From an uncultured Oscillospiraceae bacterium (GTDB lineage Bacteria > Bacillota > Clostridia > Oscillospirales > Acutalibacteraceae), in NCBI GenBank assembly GCA_949293315.1, contig CASFCH010000055.1:12922-76921 (forward strand): a stretch of 64,000 bases of DNA, in the 5' to 3' direction. Shown one piece after another: positions 1,183-5,100 of this stretch; the stretch's first letter is position 1, and every line of letters starts with the position of its first letter. The notes under the pieces are model-generated. The model made no database searches. It saw nothing but the letters and a program-made list of their open reading frames with translations, and was not told where the DNA came from. The position numbers and the translations under genes are program-made.

Positions 1183-2189
1183 TGAGCATGTTTGATGTGA
1201 AGGAGGTCTACCGCGCGGATGAAAGGCGGTATGACGGTATGGAGTACCGCCGCTGCGGCCGCTCCGGCGTGCTGCTGAGCGCTGTTGCGCTCGGGCTGTG
1301 GCACAACTTCGGCGGCTATGACGTCTATGATAACGCGCGCGATATTGTCCGCCGGGCGTTCGACCTCGGCGTGACGTATTTGGATCTGGCCAACAATTAC
1401 GGGCCGCCGTTCGGCAGTGCGGAGGAGACGTTCGGCCGGATTCTGCGTCAGGATTTTTTACCTTATCGCGATGAGCTATTTATCGCGACCAAGGCGGGTT
1501 ACACCATGCAGCCGGGGCCGTATGGGCGCGGCGGATCGCGCAAATATCTGCTCGCCAGTCTGGATGCAAGCCTCAAGCGGATGGGGCTCGACTATGTGGA
1601 TCTGTTCTATCACCACTGCATGGATCCGGACACCCCGCTTGAGGAATCCATGGGCGCGCTGGCACAGGCTGTCCACAGCGGCAAGGCGCTGTACGTCGGC
1701 CTCTCCAACTATTCCCCGGAGCAGGCCGAAAGGGCAGTGCAGATTCTCGATTCCATGGGCGTCCACTGCCTGATCGAGCAGTCGCGCTACAACATGGTGG
1801 CCCGTGAGCCGGAACATGGATTGTTGCCCGTTCTGCGGGAGAACGGTGTGGGATTTTCCGCCTTCAGCCCGCTGGCGCAGGGAATCCTGACCGGTAAGTA
1901 TAACGACGGTATTCCGGATGAATCCCGCCTGCACGGTAAATCCATCTATCTGACAGCGGAAAAGCTTGCGCCGGTAATCGAGCGGACGCGCCGGCTGGGG
2001 GCGTTGGCCGCGCAGTCCGGCATCCCGCTGACGGAGCTGGCCCTGCGCTGGGCCCTGCGCGATCCGGCCGTCACCACACTGATCGTCGGTGCGCGCACAC
2101 CGGAGCAGTTGGAGCAGAATGTCCGTGCCGCGGCGGCGGGTCCGCTGGACCCGGCGCTCTTGGGGCAGATCGACGCGATTCTCGCATAG
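1183..2189 (+). CDS. Aldo/keto reductase (YghZ / Kv-beta-like)
   Basis: ORF 1143..2189. An internal ATG at 1183 follows a GGGAGGG RBS. AKR hallmarks are present (LGLWHNFG, DLANNYGP, GLSNYSPEQ). Confidence 0.85.
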
Positions 2190-2272
2190 GCAGAGACTTG
2201 TGCGCCCCGGTACGGGGGACTGTGAAAATATGAAAGTGAAAGTACAGCAGGATAGACGCTGAAAGCCTTTTG

Positions 2273-2301
2273 TTGACAAAAAAATTAAATTTATATATAA
2301 T
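2273..2301 (+). promoter_or_regulatory. Consensus sigma-70 promoter, copy 1 (TTGACA-17-TATAAT)
   Basis: TTGACA lies at 2273-2278, followed by a 17-nt spacer and TATAAT at 2296-2301. Confidence 0.65.
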
Positions 2302-2307
2302 AAAGAT

Positions 2308-2396
2308 ACAAGGAGCCGCCGGATGAACGGCTGGTTCCCCGCTCGATTTGACTAATCGCCGCATCTTGCTAGGGACTGGGCGGTTAGTCTTTTTTT
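2308..2396 (+). ncRNA. Candidate small RNA, copy 1 (antitoxin-like, convergent with the small ORF)
   Basis: It begins just downstream of the consensus promoter. It ends in the hairpin gactaatcgcc...ggcggttagtc followed by a 7-T run at 2390-2396, which overlaps the stop codon of the minus-strand ORF. Confidence 0.45.
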
Positions 2397-2458
2397 ATTG
2401 CTACTATGTAGCCGGTTGCGAACAGCAAAATCAGTGCCGCTGCAAGCATCAGCTCCAC
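2384..2458 (-). CDS. 24-aa hydrophobic peptide VELMLAAALILLFATGYIVAIKKD, copy 1 (type I toxin-like)
   Basis: GTG start sits 8 nt after GGAAGGAGGGAGG. The peptide has a single TM-like core and a charged KKD tail. It is identical in copy 2 despite three nucleotide changes. Confidence 0.55.
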   Translation of the reverse strand: MELMLAAALILLFATGYIVAIKKD

Positions 2459-2466
2459 GGGCAACA

Positions 2467-2502
2467 CCTCCCTCCTTCCGCAGACCGCGGGGAAGAAAGA
2501 GG
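2467..2502 (-). promoter_or_regulatory. 5' UTR hairpin sequestering the Shine-Dalgarno of the small ORF, copy 1
   Basis: CCTCTTTCTTCC pairs (with G-U pairs) against GGAAGGAGGGAGG around an inner CCGC/GCGG stem. The same element lies at 2808-2843 in copy 2. Confidence 0.45.
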
Positions 2503-2548
2503 AACCAACCGCTCACCGTTTTTCGGCAAACGCCTTGTATCATGGAAT

Positions 2549-2578
2549 AGTATAATAAAATTTTACCTTCCTGTACAA
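2549..2578 (-). promoter_or_regulatory. Putative promoter of small-ORF mRNA, copy 1
   Basis: On the minus strand, TTGTAC (2573-2578) is separated by an 18-nt spacer from TATACT (2549-2554). Confidence 0.4.
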
Positions 2579-2613
2579 TGCCGGGAGCATGGTTTTAAAC
2601 AATTCGAATATCA

Positions 2614-2642
2614 TTGACAAAAAAGATAAATTTGCATATAAT
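2614..2642 (+). promoter_or_regulatory. Consensus sigma-70 promoter, copy 2 (TTGACA-17-TATAAT)
   Basis: TTGACA lies at 2614-2619 and TATAAT at 2637-2642. Confidence 0.65.
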
Positions 2643-2648
2643 GAAGAT

Positions 2649-2737
2649 ACAAGGAGCCGCCGGATGAACGGCTGGTTCTCCACGTAAGTTTAGACTAATC
2701 GTCTCGTCTTAGCGGAGAGGGCGGTTAGTCTTTTTTT
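2649..2737 (+). ncRNA. Candidate small RNA, copy 2
   Basis: Architecture matches copy 1. The terminator gactaatcgtctc...gagagggcggttagtc is followed by a T-run at 2731-2737. Confidence 0.45.
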
Positions 2738-2799
2738 ATCGCGACGATGTAGCCGGTTGCGAACAGCAAAATCAGTGCCGCTGCAAGCATCAGCTCCAC
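2725..2799 (-). CDS. 24-aa hydrophobic peptide, copy 2 (identical amino-acid sequence)
   Basis: It has the same RBS and GTG start as copy 1. Codons ATC/GTC/GCG replace ATA/GTA/GCA, all synonymous. Confidence 0.55.
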   Translation of the reverse strand: MELMLAAALILLFATGYIVAIKKD

Positions 2800-2889
2800 G
2801 GGCAACACCTCCCTCCTTCCGCAGACCGCGGGGAAGAAAGAGGAACCAACCGCTCACCGTTTCTCGGAAAACGCCTTGTATCACGGAAT

Positions 2890-2919
2890 AGTATAATAAA
2901 ATTTTACCTCCCTGTACAA
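2890..2919 (-). promoter_or_regulatory. Putative promoter of small-ORF mRNA, copy 2
   Basis: TTGTAC lies at 2914-2919 and TATACT at 2890-2895 on the minus strand. Confidence 0.4.
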
Positions 2920-3010
2920 TGCCGGGAGCATCATCGCGGCTGAGGGCAGGCGATGATGCCCGGCTTTGGCATGATCTGTGCTTCGAAAGAGGGGCTTTTC
3001 CCGGAAAAAC

Positions 3011-3040
3011 TTGACACTGCCACCAGATATCGTGTAAAAT
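3011..3040 (+). promoter_or_regulatory. Putative promoter of the topoisomerase operon
   Basis: TTGACA at 3011-3016 is followed by an 18-nt spacer and TAAAAT at 3035-3040. Confidence 0.4.
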
Positions 3041-3111
3041 TTAATGGAACATACAAGATCATCCTGCACCGGGCGGTATCGCTGACGGTGCTGTTTTATG
3101 GAGGTTATTCC

Positions 3112-5100
3112 ATGGCAAAAACCGGCAGGGAATACGGGAACAATACGATCAAAAGCCTCAAGGGAGCCGACCGTGTCCGGAAGCGTCCGGCAGTCATCTT
3201 CGGCTCGGATGGGCTGGAGGGGTGTGAGCACTCCGCGTTTGAGATCCTCTCGAACTCGATTGACGAGGCGCGCGAGGGCTACGGCAAGCGCATCGAGGTC
3301 ACCCGCTATTCGGACGCCTCCATCGAGGTGCGCGACCGGGGGCGCGGCATTCCCGTGGATTACAACGAGAATGAAAAGAAATACAACTGGGAGCTCGTCT
3401 TCTGTGAGCTCTACGCCGGCGGCAAGTACAATACAAACGACGCCTCCGGGATGTATGAGTTCTCCCTCGGGCTGAACGGCTTGGGCCTGTGCGCTACGCA
3501 GTACGCCTCCGAGTATATGGATGCGGAGATCCACCGCGACGGCTTCTGCTATAAGCTGCATTTTGAAAAGGGCGAGCCCGTCGGCAAGATGGAAAAGGTC
3601 CCCTATTCCGGCAAGGACACCGGCACCCGCATCCGCTGGAAGCCGGACATCGCCGTTTTTACGGATATCAATATCCCGCTCGAATATTTTCAGGAGACGC
3701 TCAAGCGCCAGTCCGTCGTCAACGCAGGGGTGGAATTTATCCTCAAGTACGAGGGCGACGGCGCGCCGCAGACTTTTACCTATTGCTATAAAAACGGTAT
3801 TGAGGACTATGTAAAGGAATACGTCGGGGAGGATGCCCTCACCTCCGTGCAGATCTGGTCCACACAGCGCGTCGGACGGGATCGGGCGGACAAGCCGGAT
3901 TATAAAGTGGTCATCAACAGCGCCCTGTGCTTCTCCAATAAAAAGACGCTCAAGGAGTACTATCACAACTCTAGCTGGCTGGAGTACGGCGGCGCGCCGG
4001 AAAAGGCCGTGCGCAGCGCCTTTGTCTCCCAGTTCGACGCCTATCTCAAGCAGAGCGGCAAATACCTCAAGAGCGATGGGAAGATCACCTTCCAGGATAT
4101 TGAGGACTGCCTCGTGCTCGTGGTGTCTTCCTTCTCCACACAGACGTCGTATGAGAACCAGACCAAAAAGGCGATCAACAATAAATTTATCCAGGAGGCC
4201 ATGACGGATTTCTTCCGCCATCAGCTGGAGATCTATTTCATCGAGAATAAGCTGGATGCCGACAAGGCCGCCGATCAGGTGCTCATCAATATGCGCTCCC
4301 GCGTGCGCGCGGAGAGCACGCGCCAGAACCTGAAAAAGACGCTCCAATCCTCCAACGATCTGGCCAACCGCGTTCAGAAGTTTGTCGACTGCCGCAGCAA
4401 GGATGTCACTCGGCGCGAGCTCTTCATCGTGGAGGGCGATTCCGCGCTCGGCGCGTGTAAGCAGGCGCGCGACTCGGAGTTCCAGGCGATCATCCCCCTG
4501 CGCGGCAAGATTCTCAACTGCTTAAAGAGCGAGTACGCAAAGATCTTTAAGAGCGACGTCATCACGGATCTGGTCAAGGTACTCGGCTGCGGGGTGGAGA
4601 CGGGCGGCAAGGCCAGCAAGGAACTGGCCACCTTCAGCCTGGCCAATCTCCGCTGGGACAAGGTCATCATCTGTACCGATGCGGACGTGGACGGCTTCCA
4701 GATCCGCACGCTGGTGCTCACCATGATCTACCGCCTGATGCCCACATTGATCGAGCAGGGGCGTGTTTTCATTGCGGAGACGCCGCTCTATGAGATCACC
4801 CACAAGGGGGAGACGTGGTTCTGCTACACGGAGAGTGAGAAGTCGGCAGTCCTCAAAGAGCTTGGGGAAAAGGCGCGGCCGACCATCCAGCGCTCCAAGG
4901 GACTTGGTGAAAACGATGCGGACATGATGTCCCTCACCACGATGAATCCGTCCACGCGCCGACTGATCAAGGTTACGCCCGATAACGCCGAGGAGATGGC
5001 CCGCGAATTTGAAATGCTGCTTGGGAACGATTTGAACGCCCGTAAGGAGCACATCGCCAGCGACGGCCATCTCTATCTCGATTTGATTGACGTGAGCTGA
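3112..5100 (+). CDS. Type IIA DNA topoisomerase subunit B (GyrB/ParE family, ParE-like)
   Basis: ATG at 3112 follows a GGAGG RBS. GHKL ATPase and TOPRIM motifs are present (EGDSA, PLRGKILN, DADVDG). The N-terminus RKRPAVIFG is divergent. Confidence 0.85.
   Translation: MAKTGREYGNNTIKSLKGADRVRKRPAVIFGSDGLEGCEHSAFEILSNSIDEAREGYGKRIEVTRYSDASIEVRDRGRGIPVDYNENEKKYNWELVFCELYAGGKYNTNDASGMYEFSLGLNGLGLCATQYASEYMDAEIHRDGFCYKLHFEKGEPVGKMEKVPYSGKDTGTRIRWKPDIAVFTDINIPLEYFQETLKRQSVVNAGVEFILKYEGDGAPQTFTYCYKNGIEDYVKEYVGEDALTSVQIWSTQRVGRDRADKPDYKVVINSALCFSNKKTLKEYYHNSSWLEYGGAPEKAVRSAFVSQFDAYLKQSGKYLKSDGKITFQDIEDCLVLVVSSFSTQTSYENQTKKAINNKFIQEAMTDFFRHQLEIYFIENKLDADKAADQVLINMRSRVRAESTRQNLKKTLQSSNDLANRVQKFVDCRSKDVTRRELFIVEGDSALGACKQARDSEFQAIIPLRGKILNCLKSEYAKIFKSDVITDLVKVLGCGVETGGKASKELATFSLANLRWDKVIICTDADVDGFQIRTLVLTMIYRLMPTLIEQGRVFIAETPLYEITHKGETWFCYTESEKSAVLKELGEKARPTIQRSKGLGENDADMMSLTTMNPSTRRLIKVTPDNAEEMAREFEMLLGNDLNARKEHIASDGHLYLDLIDVS

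What the first reader, a model, noticed from the sequence alone, without database searches (positions are those of the whole stretch)
2384..2799. The two small-ORF copies differ only by three synonymous third-position substitutions spaced exactly 3 nt apart
Copy 1 reads ...TAC ATA GTA GCA ATA AAA... and copy 2 reads ...TAC ATC GTC GCG ATA AAA.... Ile, Val and Ala are all preserved, and the remaining 66 nt are identical. In the frame of the track ORFs 2352..2543 and 2690..2884, the same changes are non-synonymous (HSSNKK versus HRRDKK). A three-periodic, purely synonymous pattern is direct sequence evidence that the 24-aa frame is the one under protein-level selection. With only three sites, the statistical weight is limited.
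Basis: seen in the sequence. Interest (0 to 1): 0.6.

Follow-up and report, generated by a model that had tools for sequence, protein, structure and literature searches.

The report
Tandem small toxin genes, truly coding
The two 24-codon reading frames are real genes for a tiny membrane peptide. Each sits in a duplicated toxin/antisense-RNA cassette of a known kind (like bsrG/SR4 of Bacillus subtilis) that is common but unannotated in this group of gut bacteria.

Summary
The two minus-strand 24-codon ORFs (2384-2458 and 2725-2799) differ at exactly three sites (2399/2740, 2402/2743, 2405/2746). All three are third codon positions and synonymous.

Taken alone this is weak evidence. The chance of three random synonymous hits is about 0.017, and the sites are clustered at the edge of a hyper-divergent zone.

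Relatives settle the question:
- The genome holds 10 copies of the cassette, and related genomes hold many more.
- Length differences between peptide classes are in frame.
- Pooled pN/pS is 0.22-0.44.
- The closest pairs show 7 synonymous and 0 non-synonymous changes.
- An (F/V)ATGYIxxIKK motif is kept across genera while its codons vary. None of 5000 column shuffles matched this.
- The overlapping 63/64-aa ORF frame behaves as non-coding.

Each cassette has a leader hairpin that sequesters the Shine-Dalgarno sequence. It also has a roughly 40-bp helix joining the two ends of the mRNA, and a convergent ~90-nt antisense RNA. The terminator of that RNA contains the peptide's Lys-Lys codons and stop codon. 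[quoted passage not shown]

Longer peptides in the same RNA-defined family pass Pfam Hol_Tox. The window's peptides do not. Expression and toxicity are untested.

Verdict: a new member of a known kind, of moderate interest.

The parts
2384..2458 (-). Copy 1 small ORF: GTG start at 2458, 24 aa (M)ELMLAAALILLFATGYIVAIKKD, TAA stop at 2384-2386. Predicted type I toxin peptide.
   Evidence: Coding tests.
2725..2799 (-). Copy 2 small ORF encoding the same peptide. It differs from copy 1 only at 2740, 2743 and 2746 (third codon positions of Ala20, Val19 and Ile18).
2399..2405 (-). The three synonymous sites in copy 1 (2399, 2402, 2405). They lie 3-9 nt beyond the antisense RNA's U-tract, so outside the predicted sRNA. 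In copy 1 they are rare A-ending codons; in copy 2 they are the genome's preferred codons.
2467..2502 (-). Copy 1 Shine-Dalgarno sequence (GGAAGGAGGGAGG, 2467-2479) paired with the upstream CCUCUUUCUUCC in a hairpin. The copy 2 equivalent is at 2808-2843.
   Evidence: Fold. Alignment fold, with compensatory changes at columns 55-57 / 65-67.
2303..2542 (-). Predicted copy 1 toxin mRNA of about 240 nt. Its 5' ~45 nt pair with its 3' ~45 nt to form a panhandle like helix P1 of bsrG. The copy 2 equivalent is about 2644-2883.
   Evidence: MFE -110.2 kcal/mol, z -6.1; cognate versus non-cognate duplex energies. The transcript ends are inferred, not measured.
2549..2577 (-). Copy 1 toxin promoter-like site, TGTACA-17-TATACT. 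The copy 2 equivalent is at 2890-2918.
2273..2301 (+). Copy 1 antisense RNA promoter, TTGACA-17-TATAAT (12/12 match). The copy 2 equivalent is at 2614-2642.
   Evidence: A convergent near-consensus promoter lies 80-99 nt after the stop in 43 of 49 family modules.
2308..2398 (+). Predicted copy 1 antisense sRNA of about 90 nt (candidate antitoxin). It has a 5' hairpin (about 2312-2338), a variable spacer, a terminator hairpin (2350-2389) and a U-tract (2390-2396). The U-tract is the complement of the Lys-Lys codons, and the stem contains the Asp codon and the stop codon.
   Evidence: z -4.8. (9 of 16 pairs with compensatory changes).
2649..2739 (+). Predicted copy 2 antisense sRNA. It has the same two hairpins, but the upper terminator stem/loop and the spacer differ from copy 1 (10/20 and 7/13 columns).
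2352..2543 (-). 63-aa ORF in the +2 frame, with its partner at 2690-2884 (64 aa). A chance open frame, not a gene.
   Evidence: No Pfam or NCBIfam hit.

Best explanation
Each 341-nt unit is a type I toxin-antitoxin cassette built like bsrG/SR4 and txpA/RatA.

The minus strand gives an mRNA of about 240 nt for a 24-aa single-helix membrane peptide with a Lys-Lys-Asp tail. Translation is probably kept low in three ways: a GTG start, a hairpin that buries the Shine-Dalgarno sequence, and a roughly 40-bp helix between the mRNA's 5' and 3' ends.

The plus strand gives a convergent sRNA of about 90 nt from a perfect sigma-70 promoter. This sRNA is fully complementary to the toxin mRNA's 3' UTR, including the 3' arm of that long helix.

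By analogy with SR4, pairing of the sRNA would create an RNase III substrate and free the 5' arm, so the toxin message is destroyed or further silenced.

The three differences between the copies are synonymous because the peptide sequence is under purifying selection. They sit in the only stretch of the divergent central zone that is constrained by coding alone. The next 21 nt (Ile-Lys-Lys-Asp-stop-CCGCCC) are also fixed by the sRNA terminator.

Shown in silico: the coding constraint, the RNA structures with covariation, the promoters, and the copy number and distribution. Inferred: transcription, toxicity, and neutralisation by the sRNA.
For: Coding:
- Searches give the codon-position bias, pN/pS of 0.22-0.44, and 7 synonymous against 0 non-synonymous changes in the closest pairs.
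- Between the peptide classes the length difference is an in-frame 9-nt indel.
- No column shuffle out of 5000 matches the cross-genus signal.
- The stop codon varies only among TAA, TAG and TGA, while the opposite arm of the terminator stem compensates.

RNA layout:
- The Shine-Dalgarno hairpin shows covariation.
- The full-length mRNA folds to -110 kcal/mol with z -6.1, closed by a 5'-3' helix.
- Leader/3'UTR duplexes average -48.9 kcal/mol for cognate pairs, -32.3 for non-cognate pairs and -20.9 for shuffled sequences. The cognate partner is the best of 41 in 25 modules.
- The sRNA has a 12/12 promoter and two hairpins with 9 of 16 covarying pairs.
- A convergent promoter is found in 43 of 49 modules.

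Family:
- There are 10 copies in this genome, mostly in tandem arrays.
- Leader covariance models hit 22 of 401 genomes in the family and 59 of 401 genomes (40 of 179 genera) in the order.
- Longer peptides in the same RNA-defined family pass Pfam Hol_Tox: 35.2 and 27.4 bits against a gathering threshold of 23.3.

Literature:
- bsrG mRNA has the same 5'-3' helix P1, a sequestered Shine-Dalgarno sequence, and an antitoxin that pairs at the 3' end (PMC3834814).
- Tandem duplication and presence/absence variation are typical of type I loci (PMC2887945).
- The orthologous site holds 0, 1 or 2 modules in three species of the genus.
Against: - There is no expression data.
- Nothing tests toxicity or antitoxin action.
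- The window's own peptides give no Hol_Tox hit.
- YhzE-2, a comparable small peptide in B. subtilis, was not toxic when overproduced (PMC2887945), so 'toxin' is not guaranteed.
- The minus-strand transcript end is inferred. The central hairpin lacks a U-tract on that strand.
- The genome is a metagenome-assembled genome (MAG), so the tandem copies could in principle be an assembly artefact.
- My ORF extraction in distant genomes filtered for hydrophobic peptides with a basic tail, which biases the family-level peptide list.
Confidence: 0.8

Rival explanations
1. The peptide is a genuine small membrane protein regulated by an antisense RNA, but it is not a toxin. It could be, for example, a membrane modulator or a stress peptide. 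The cassette then looks like a type I TA without killing or stasis activity.
For: All the coding and RNA evidence fits this reading equally well. YhzE-2 of B. subtilis has an antisense RNA but showed no toxicity (PMC2887945). The window peptides do not reach any toxin family model.
Against: Longer members of the same RNA-defined family pass Pfam Hol_Tox. Four features are the signature of toxin control: heavy translational silencing (GTG start, sequestered Shine-Dalgarno sequence, 5'-3' helix), multi-copy tandem arrays, and presence/absence variation.
Confidence: 0.12
2. The three-site pattern is one multi-nucleotide event, such as a templated repair patch or a gene-conversion tract end, or a by-product of GC-biased change. 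It is not three independent neutral hits. On this reading the pair by itself says little about selection.
For: The sites lie within 7 nt, in three consecutive codons (P about 0.012 if independent). All three are A-to-G/C changes from rare to preferred codons. They border a hyper-divergent zone, while the preceding 59 nt are identical, which suggests mosaic homogenisation.
Against: No donor carrying ATCGTCGCGAT exists elsewhere in the genome. The same codons vary synonymously and independently in other copies: GCG in C17:10847 and GTT in the owl-gut contig. Even a single event that lands only on wobble positions and survives is what coding constraint predicts. This rival concerns only the weight of the pair, not the coding conclusion, which rests.
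Confidence: 0.35
3. The conservation is at RNA level only. The region would be a structured non-coding RNA or a miniature inverted-repeat mobile element whose arms are the two roughly 45-nt ends, and the small ORF would be incidental.
For: The unit is flanked by imperfect inverted repeats, since the leader resembles the sRNA 5' domain. It is multi-copy and shows an empty site in a sister species.
Against: Variation is three-periodic, with the second codon position least variable. The Shine-Dalgarno sequence and start are at fixed spacing, indels are in frame, and the stop is always a stop although its stem partner covaries. The ATGY motif is kept through synonymous codon turnover. The copy 1 mini-hairpin over codons 16-20 is broken in copy 2. 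No target-site duplication is visible at the filled versus empty site.
Confidence: 0.04
4. The annotated 63/64-aa ORFs (2352-2543 and 2690-2884) are the real genes, and the 24-aa frame is an overlapping accident.
For: Both are open and have ATG or GTG starts. The +2 frame has no stop inside the small-ORF region in any genus copy.
Against: In this frame there are 10 synonymous against 137 non-synonymous codon differences, with BLOSUM sums of -145 (genus) and -855 (across genera). The start position and length vary from 0 to 111 aa. There is no start at all in G002 or the owl-gut contig, and a 1-nt leader indel shifts the upstream part in the C60 and C17 copies. There is no family hit.
Confidence: 0.01

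Closest known systems
bsrG/SR4 of Bacillus subtilis (TxpA/BsrG family type I toxin-antitoxin)
   Same: The toxin mRNA and antisense RNA converge and overlap at their 3' ends. The mRNA's 5' ~35-45 nt pair with its 3' region in a long helix (P1), and the 3' strand of that helix is complementary to the antitoxin. The Shine-Dalgarno sequence is sequestered in a short helix. The stop codon lies in the stem that is complementary to the antitoxin terminator (PMC3834814).
   Different: The toxin here is 21-24 aa against 38 aa for BsrG. The sRNA is about 90 nt against 183 nt. The locus is chromosomal and intergenic with no prophage context seen, and it occurs in tandem arrays. The window peptide has no detectable sequence similarity to the family model. 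No experimental data exist.
Pfam Hol_Tox PF16935 (putative holin-like toxins; TxpA-like peptides)
   Same: Members are single-helix peptides with a Lys-rich tail. Peptides of 26-32 aa (MVTYxxLFxF...ITKKK) that sit behind the same conserved leader in related genomes score 35.2, 27.4 and 23.2 bits against a gathering threshold of 23.3.
   Different: The window's ATGY-class and the 21-aa MEY...AIKKD-class peptides give no hit even at E<=10. They are 4-10 residues shorter and lack the N-terminal MVTY..LF.F segment.
ibs/sib and ldr/rdl of Escherichia coli (multi-copy, tandem type I loci)
   Same: These loci also have very short hydrophobic toxins (Ibs is about 19 aa, from my own knowledge) and tandemly repeated cassettes in one intergenic region (PMC2887945). 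Their paralogous antisense RNAs differ mainly in a variable segment.
   Different: They belong to a different phylum, and their sRNA geometry differs: Sib covers the whole ibs ORF. There is no sequence or RNA-model similarity, and Rfam gave no hit.

Membership tests
Type I toxin-antitoxin system (general) | Small (<60 aa) hydrophobic peptide with one membrane-spanning stretch and a charged end | tested here: met
   The peptide (M)ELMLAAALILLFATGYIVAIKKD has about 20 apolar residues followed by KKD. This is read from the sequence; no transmembrane predictor was run.
Type I toxin-antitoxin system (general) | The peptide frame is really coding (under purifying selection) | tested here: met
   pN/pS 0.22-0.44, no shuffle out of 5000 matching the signal, and an in-frame indel between the peptide classes.
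Type I toxin-antitoxin system (general) | Antisense sRNA with its own promoter and terminator that overlaps the toxin mRNA | tested here: inconclusive
   Met in silico: 12/12 promoter, terminator fold with z -4.8, covariation in 9 of 16 pairs, and conservation in 43 of 49 modules.
Type I toxin-antitoxin system (general) | Toxicity on overexpression, and neutralisation by the sRNA | not testable with these tools
   This needs induction in a laboratory strain with and without the sRNA.
TxpA/BsrG family (Pfam Hol_Tox PF16935) | Peptide scores at or above the Pfam gathering threshold (23.3 bits) | tested here: not met
   The window peptides give no Hol_Tox hit at E<=10. Relatives sharing the leader RNA do pass, at 35.2 and 27.4 bits.
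TxpA/BsrG family (bsrG/SR4 RNA layout) | 3'-end overlap with the antitoxin, a 5'-3' helix P1, and a sequestered Shine-Dalgarno sequence | tested here: met
   Searches compared with PMC3834814. These are predictions with covariation support, not structure probing.
TxpA/BsrG family | RNase III-dependent decay of the toxin mRNA/sRNA duplex | not testable with these tools
   Not tested.
Any Rfam RNA family | Covariance-model score at or above the gathering threshold | tested here: not met
   The best hits were 13.8-17 bits against thresholds of 34-175.
Miniature inverted-repeat transposable element | Terminal inverted repeats plus target-site duplication, with no conserved coding capacity | tested here: not met
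   Inverted arms exist. However, no duplication is seen at the filled versus empty site, and a conserved ORF, Shine-Dalgarno sequence and two promoters are present.

The most novel reading that the evidence does not exclude
The window belongs to a so far undescribed, order-wide RNA-defined family of bsrG-like cassettes. The family was found in about 15% of sampled genomes and 22% of sampled genera, with no Rfam model. Its toxins have shrunk to 17-24 aa in two classes, ATGY and MEY...AIKKD, which would place them among the shortest Gram-positive type I toxins. In this family the antitoxin's terminator doubles as the toxin's Lys-Lys-(Asp/Lys)-stop coding sequence. The hypervariable terminator loop and spacer would act as the address that keeps up to ten paralogous sRNAs specific for their own mRNA.
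Probability: 0.45. Interest if true: 0.45.

Novelty: new member of a known kind. Interest (0 to 1): 0.33.

Why it matters
Gene callers and protein databases miss genes this small. None of the peptides is in a collection of 15 billion proteins, and the window's peptides match no Pfam or NCBIfam model above threshold. An overlapping spurious 63-aa ORF is listed in the same place.

Showing that the 24-aa frame is the selected one corrects the annotation. It also exposes a large hidden set of type I toxin-antitoxin-like cassettes in Oscillospirales, which are dominant and hard-to-culture gut anaerobes. A 2019 review, citing the 2010 search, says homologues of known type I toxins could not be found in most clostridial species (PMC6563280).

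The family also gives a clean natural example of one DNA stretch serving two roles: it codes the peptide tail and stop on one strand, and it is the terminator of the regulator on the other. The biology itself is the known bsrG/SR4 kind, so the surprise for a specialist is modest.

Tried and rejected
- Rfam scan of 2100-3150 at E<=10 found only sub-threshold noise.
- Pfam and NCBIfam scans of the window peptides and the 63-aa ORF gave only weak hits typical of generic transmembrane segments, such as prepilin, NPXTG and a mycobacteriophage TM protein.
- An exact-pattern scan of genome contigs and metagenome contigs with a leader motif found the genus (Candidatus Onthovicinus), one owl-gut contig, and chance hits.
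- blastn of the module against the phage and plasmid collections found no match.
- An exact look-up of seven peptides and ORFs in the protein collection found none present.
- Pairwise dN/dS pooled across both peptide classes was uninformative (0.54) because the N-terminal halves do not align between classes. It was replaced by within-class and motif-anchored tests.
- The first covariance model (R1) hit several distant loci on the wrong strand. This was resolved by inspecting both strands.
- I considered an RNA-structure explanation for the three sites. In copy 1, GCUAC-AUA-GUAGC forms a 5-bp hairpin, but copy 2 breaks it, so this was rejected.
- I considered a micro-ORF in the sRNA (MNGWF...). 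Its ATG is absent in G002, in the owl contig and in other genera, so this was rejected.
Full report
**1. Observation**

The intergenic region lies between an aldo/keto-reductase-like gene (1143-2189) and a type IIA topoisomerase B-subunit gene (from about 3112). It holds a 341-nt direct duplication.

On the minus strand each unit carries a small ORF: copy 1 at 2384-2458 and copy 2 at 2725-2799. Each runs from a GTG that aligns with ATG in the paralogues to a TAA stop. Both encode (M)ELMLAAALILLFATGYIVAIKKD.

The two 75-nt ORFs differ at exactly three columns:
- + strand 2399 T vs 2740 C (GCA/GCG, Ala20)
- + strand 2402 T vs 2743 G (GTA/GTC, Val19)
- + strand 2405 T vs 2746 G (ATA/ATC, Ile18)

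All are third positions, all are synonymous, and they are spaced 3 nt apart. In the +2 frame of the 63/64-aa ORFs (2352-2543, 2690-2884) the same changes are non-synonymous.

**2. Weight of the pair alone**

About 17.7 of the 69 interior sites are synonymous. Three independent hits would all be synonymous with P about 0.017.

The hits are clustered in three consecutive codons (P about 0.012 if scattered at random). A segment-by-segment count gives differing columns as follows:

| Segment | Differing columns |
|---|---|
| Spacer, start and codons 1-17 | 0/59 |
| Codons 18-20 | 3/9 |
| Codon 21 through stop and CCGCCC | 0/21 |
| Upper terminator stem and loop | 10/20 |
| 3' stem arm | 0/8 |
| Spacer between the two sRNA hairpins | 7/13 |
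| sRNA 5' hairpin | 1/35 |

So the three sites form the 5' edge of a roughly 70-nt hyper-divergent centre, flanked by nearly identical DNA. Within that centre, change is seen only where nothing but wobble positions, loop or spacer is at stake. That is what coding constraint plus RNA-structure constraint predicts. It also means the three hits may not be independent.

All three changes go from A to G or C. They convert codons that are rare in this genome (ATA 12%, GTA 13%, GCA 12%) into preferred ones (ATC 65%, GTC 38%, GCG 38%). No other place in the genome carries ATCGTCGCGAT, so no conversion donor is visible.

**3. Paralogues and orthologues**

The window's genome (G000) has ten copies of the unit. 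There are two in the window, two on C60, two on C17, three on C27, and one frameshifted copy on C27. Two sister species hold three copies and one copy, and an owl-gut contig holds one. Record titles place the genus as Candidatus Onthovicinus, Oscillospiraceae.

Thirteen intact genes fall into a 24-aa class (...LLFATGYIVAIKKD) and a 21-aa class (MEYIIAFMVILLLLVIAIKKD and variants). The classes are related by an in-frame 9-nt indel. Start (ATG or GTG) and stop (TAA or TGA) are always in the same place.

| Measure | 24-aa class | 21-aa class |
|---|---|---|
| Variable columns by codon position 1/2/3 | 7/3/11 of 23 | 6/2/7 of 20 |
| Pooled pN/pS | 0.44 | 0.22 |
| Shuffles (of 20000) reaching the replacement (BLOSUM62) score | 7 | 417 |
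| Shuffles (of 20000) reaching the synonymous count with no stop | 88 | 88 |

The four nearest-neighbour pairs differ only synonymously (3:0, 1:0, 2:0, 1:0). The column shuffles keep phylogeny and column composition.

**4. Wider family**

A covariance model of the toxin leader (A2/R1) hit 22 of 401 genomes in the same family. A second model built from diverse leaders (A3/R2) hit 59 of 401 genomes and 40 of 179 genera in the order. Hits were often multi-copy and tandem.

Behind the leader there is again a short hydrophobic ORF. The peptides fall into three groups:
- **ATGY class**, 23-24 aa: for example MEHYVFIILILIFATGYIATVKKK and MEYYFLLVLILIVATGYITSIKK.
- **21-aa class**: for example MEYIVVILIMTLLLVVAIKKD.
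- **26-32-aa class**: for example MVTYETLFLFGSLVVAIIALVIDITKKK.

I took 13 distinct ATGY-class genes and compared the 19 codons anchored on the motif:
- Mean pairwise differences per site are 0.33, 0.14 and 0.47 for codon positions 1, 2 and 3.
- A-T-G-Y is invariant while Ala uses 3 codons, Thr uses 4 and Gly uses 3.
- None of 5000 column shuffles reached the observed synonymous count or BLOSUM sum.
- Only 9 of 5000 shuffles were free of stops.

The +2 frame scores as non-coding: 70 synonymous against 779 non-synonymous differences, with a BLOSUM sum of -855. Within the genus its start and length vary from 0 to 111 aa, and a 1-nt leader indel shifts its upstream part.

Caveat: my ORF picking in distant genomes required a hydrophobic peptide with a basic tail. 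Two loci (L077, L080) have the frame disturbed at the poly-A run.

**5. What the unit is**

*Plus strand.* A perfect TTGACA-17-TATAAT promoter (2273-2301; 2614-2642) is followed about 90 nt later by a terminator. The ~90-nt RNA folds into a 5' hairpin and a terminator hairpin (z -4.8 and -4.3). In a 19-sequence alignment, 9 of 16 predicted pairs show compensatory double changes.

The terminator's U-tract is the complement of the peptide's Lys-Lys codons. Its stem contains the last sense codon and the stop codon. Where the stop is TAG or TGA, or the last codon is GAT or AAA, the opposite arm changes to match, but the triplet is always a stop. A convergent near-consensus promoter lies 80-99 nt after the stop in 43 of 49 distinct modules.

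*Minus strand.* A weaker promoter (TGTACA-17-TATACT) precedes a conserved leader. In the leader, CCUCUUUCUUCC pairs with the Shine-Dalgarno sequence GGAAGGAGGGAGG. Compensatory changes support the inner stem.

The predicted full-length mRNA (2542 to 2303) folds to -110 kcal/mol (z -6.1). Its first ~45 nt pair with its last ~45 nt.

Across 41 modules, leader/3'UTR duplexes average:
- -48.9 kcal/mol for cognate pairs
- -32.3 kcal/mol for non-cognate pairs
- -20.9 ± 4.7 kcal/mol for shuffled partners

The cognate partner is the best of 41 in 25 cases and within the top 7 in all. The helix therefore covaries between genera. Put another way, the toxin leader resembles the 5' domain of the sRNA, and both are complementary to the toxin 3' UTR.

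**6. Comparison with known systems**

This is the published layout of B. subtilis bsrG/SR4 (PMC3834814):
- bsrG nt 1-35 pair with nt 232-262 in helix P1.
- The Shine-Dalgarno sequence sits in a short helix.
- The stop codon lies in the stem-loop complementary to the SR4 terminator.
- SR4 pairs at the 3' end, frees the 5' arm, extends the Shine-Dalgarno helix and triggers RNase III decay.

TxpA-like toxins are the 'holin-like toxins', and tandem duplication is typical of type I loci (PMC2887945).

Two peptides from the RNA-defined family pass Pfam Hol_Tox (35.2 and 27.4 bits against a threshold of 23.3), and one sits at 23.2. The window's peptides and the other short classes do not hit it at all. 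There is no Rfam hit.

I therefore say the cassette works like bsrG/SR4 and is linked to that family through its RNA. I do not file the 24-aa peptide as a Hol_Tox member by sequence.

**7. Locus dynamics**

The same site between the reductase gene and the topoisomerase gene differs among three species of the genus:
- It is empty in G002, with a 61-nt spacer.
- It holds one 21-aa-class module in G001.
- It holds two 24-aa-class modules here.

I saw no target-site duplication. There is no match in the phage or plasmid collections.

**8. Limits**

There is no transcription, translation or toxicity evidence. The genome is a MAG, so the tandem pair could not be verified with reads, although three other tandem arrays with similar spacing exist in the same genome. 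E-values from the covariance models are rough.

**9. Verdict**

The pair alone is weak evidence, but the family makes the coding call secure (about 0.95). The type I toxin-antitoxin reading is well supported in silico (about 0.8) but untested. It is a new, very short member of a known kind. It is of moderate interest, mainly because the family is widespread, unannotated and absent from Rfam.

Noticed in passing
G000 C27:91100-91193 and downstream (locus L037); G001 C21:173900-173993 (L021): A tenth copy has lost one A in the poly-A run, so the frame runs on to an 82-aa ORF (MMYIIAFMVILLPLIIAIKEMKRPAQRF...). The same frameshifted copy, with the same extended ORF, is present at the matching place in the sister species G001. 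It lacks the antisense promoter.
   Followed up: partly
Its ATG is missing in G002, in the owl-gut contig and in all other genera (CAGTAAACGG, GATAGACGG). Its conserved bases are the 3' arm of the sRNA's 5' hairpin.
   Followed up: partly
window 2190-3010 versus L100 (G002 C2) and L101 (G001 C22): The orthologous intergenic site holds 0, 1 or 2 modules in three species of the genus. The single G001 module is of the 21-aa class, not the 24-aa class found here. Its antisense promoter has a weakened -10 (TATAGA) and a shortened sRNA 5' end.
   Followed up: partly
loci L080 (G151) and L077 (G633): In two distant genomes the toxin frame is disturbed exactly at the poly-A (Lys) run, by one extra A or one missing base. 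The cause could be decay, sequencing error or slippage at the homopolymer.
   Followed up: no
window 2396-2407 and paralogues: Ile18 is ATA in 11 of 13 ATGY-class genes across genera, although ATA is a rare codon here (12%). The A-rich run upstream of the terminator hairpin may itself be under some nucleotide-level constraint. Copy 2 is the exception.
   Followed up: no
window 2458 and 2799; G000 C27:43217: Three of the ten copies in this genome, including both in the window, start with GTG where the others have ATG. This is possibly another layer of low translation.
   Followed up: no
G044 C7:73629-77733; G437 C17 and C22; G455; G653 C1: Some Oscillospirales genomes carry 5-9 leader hits, several of them in tandem arrays spaced 300-350 nt apart. 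This suggests array expansion is a general habit of this family.
   Followed up: no
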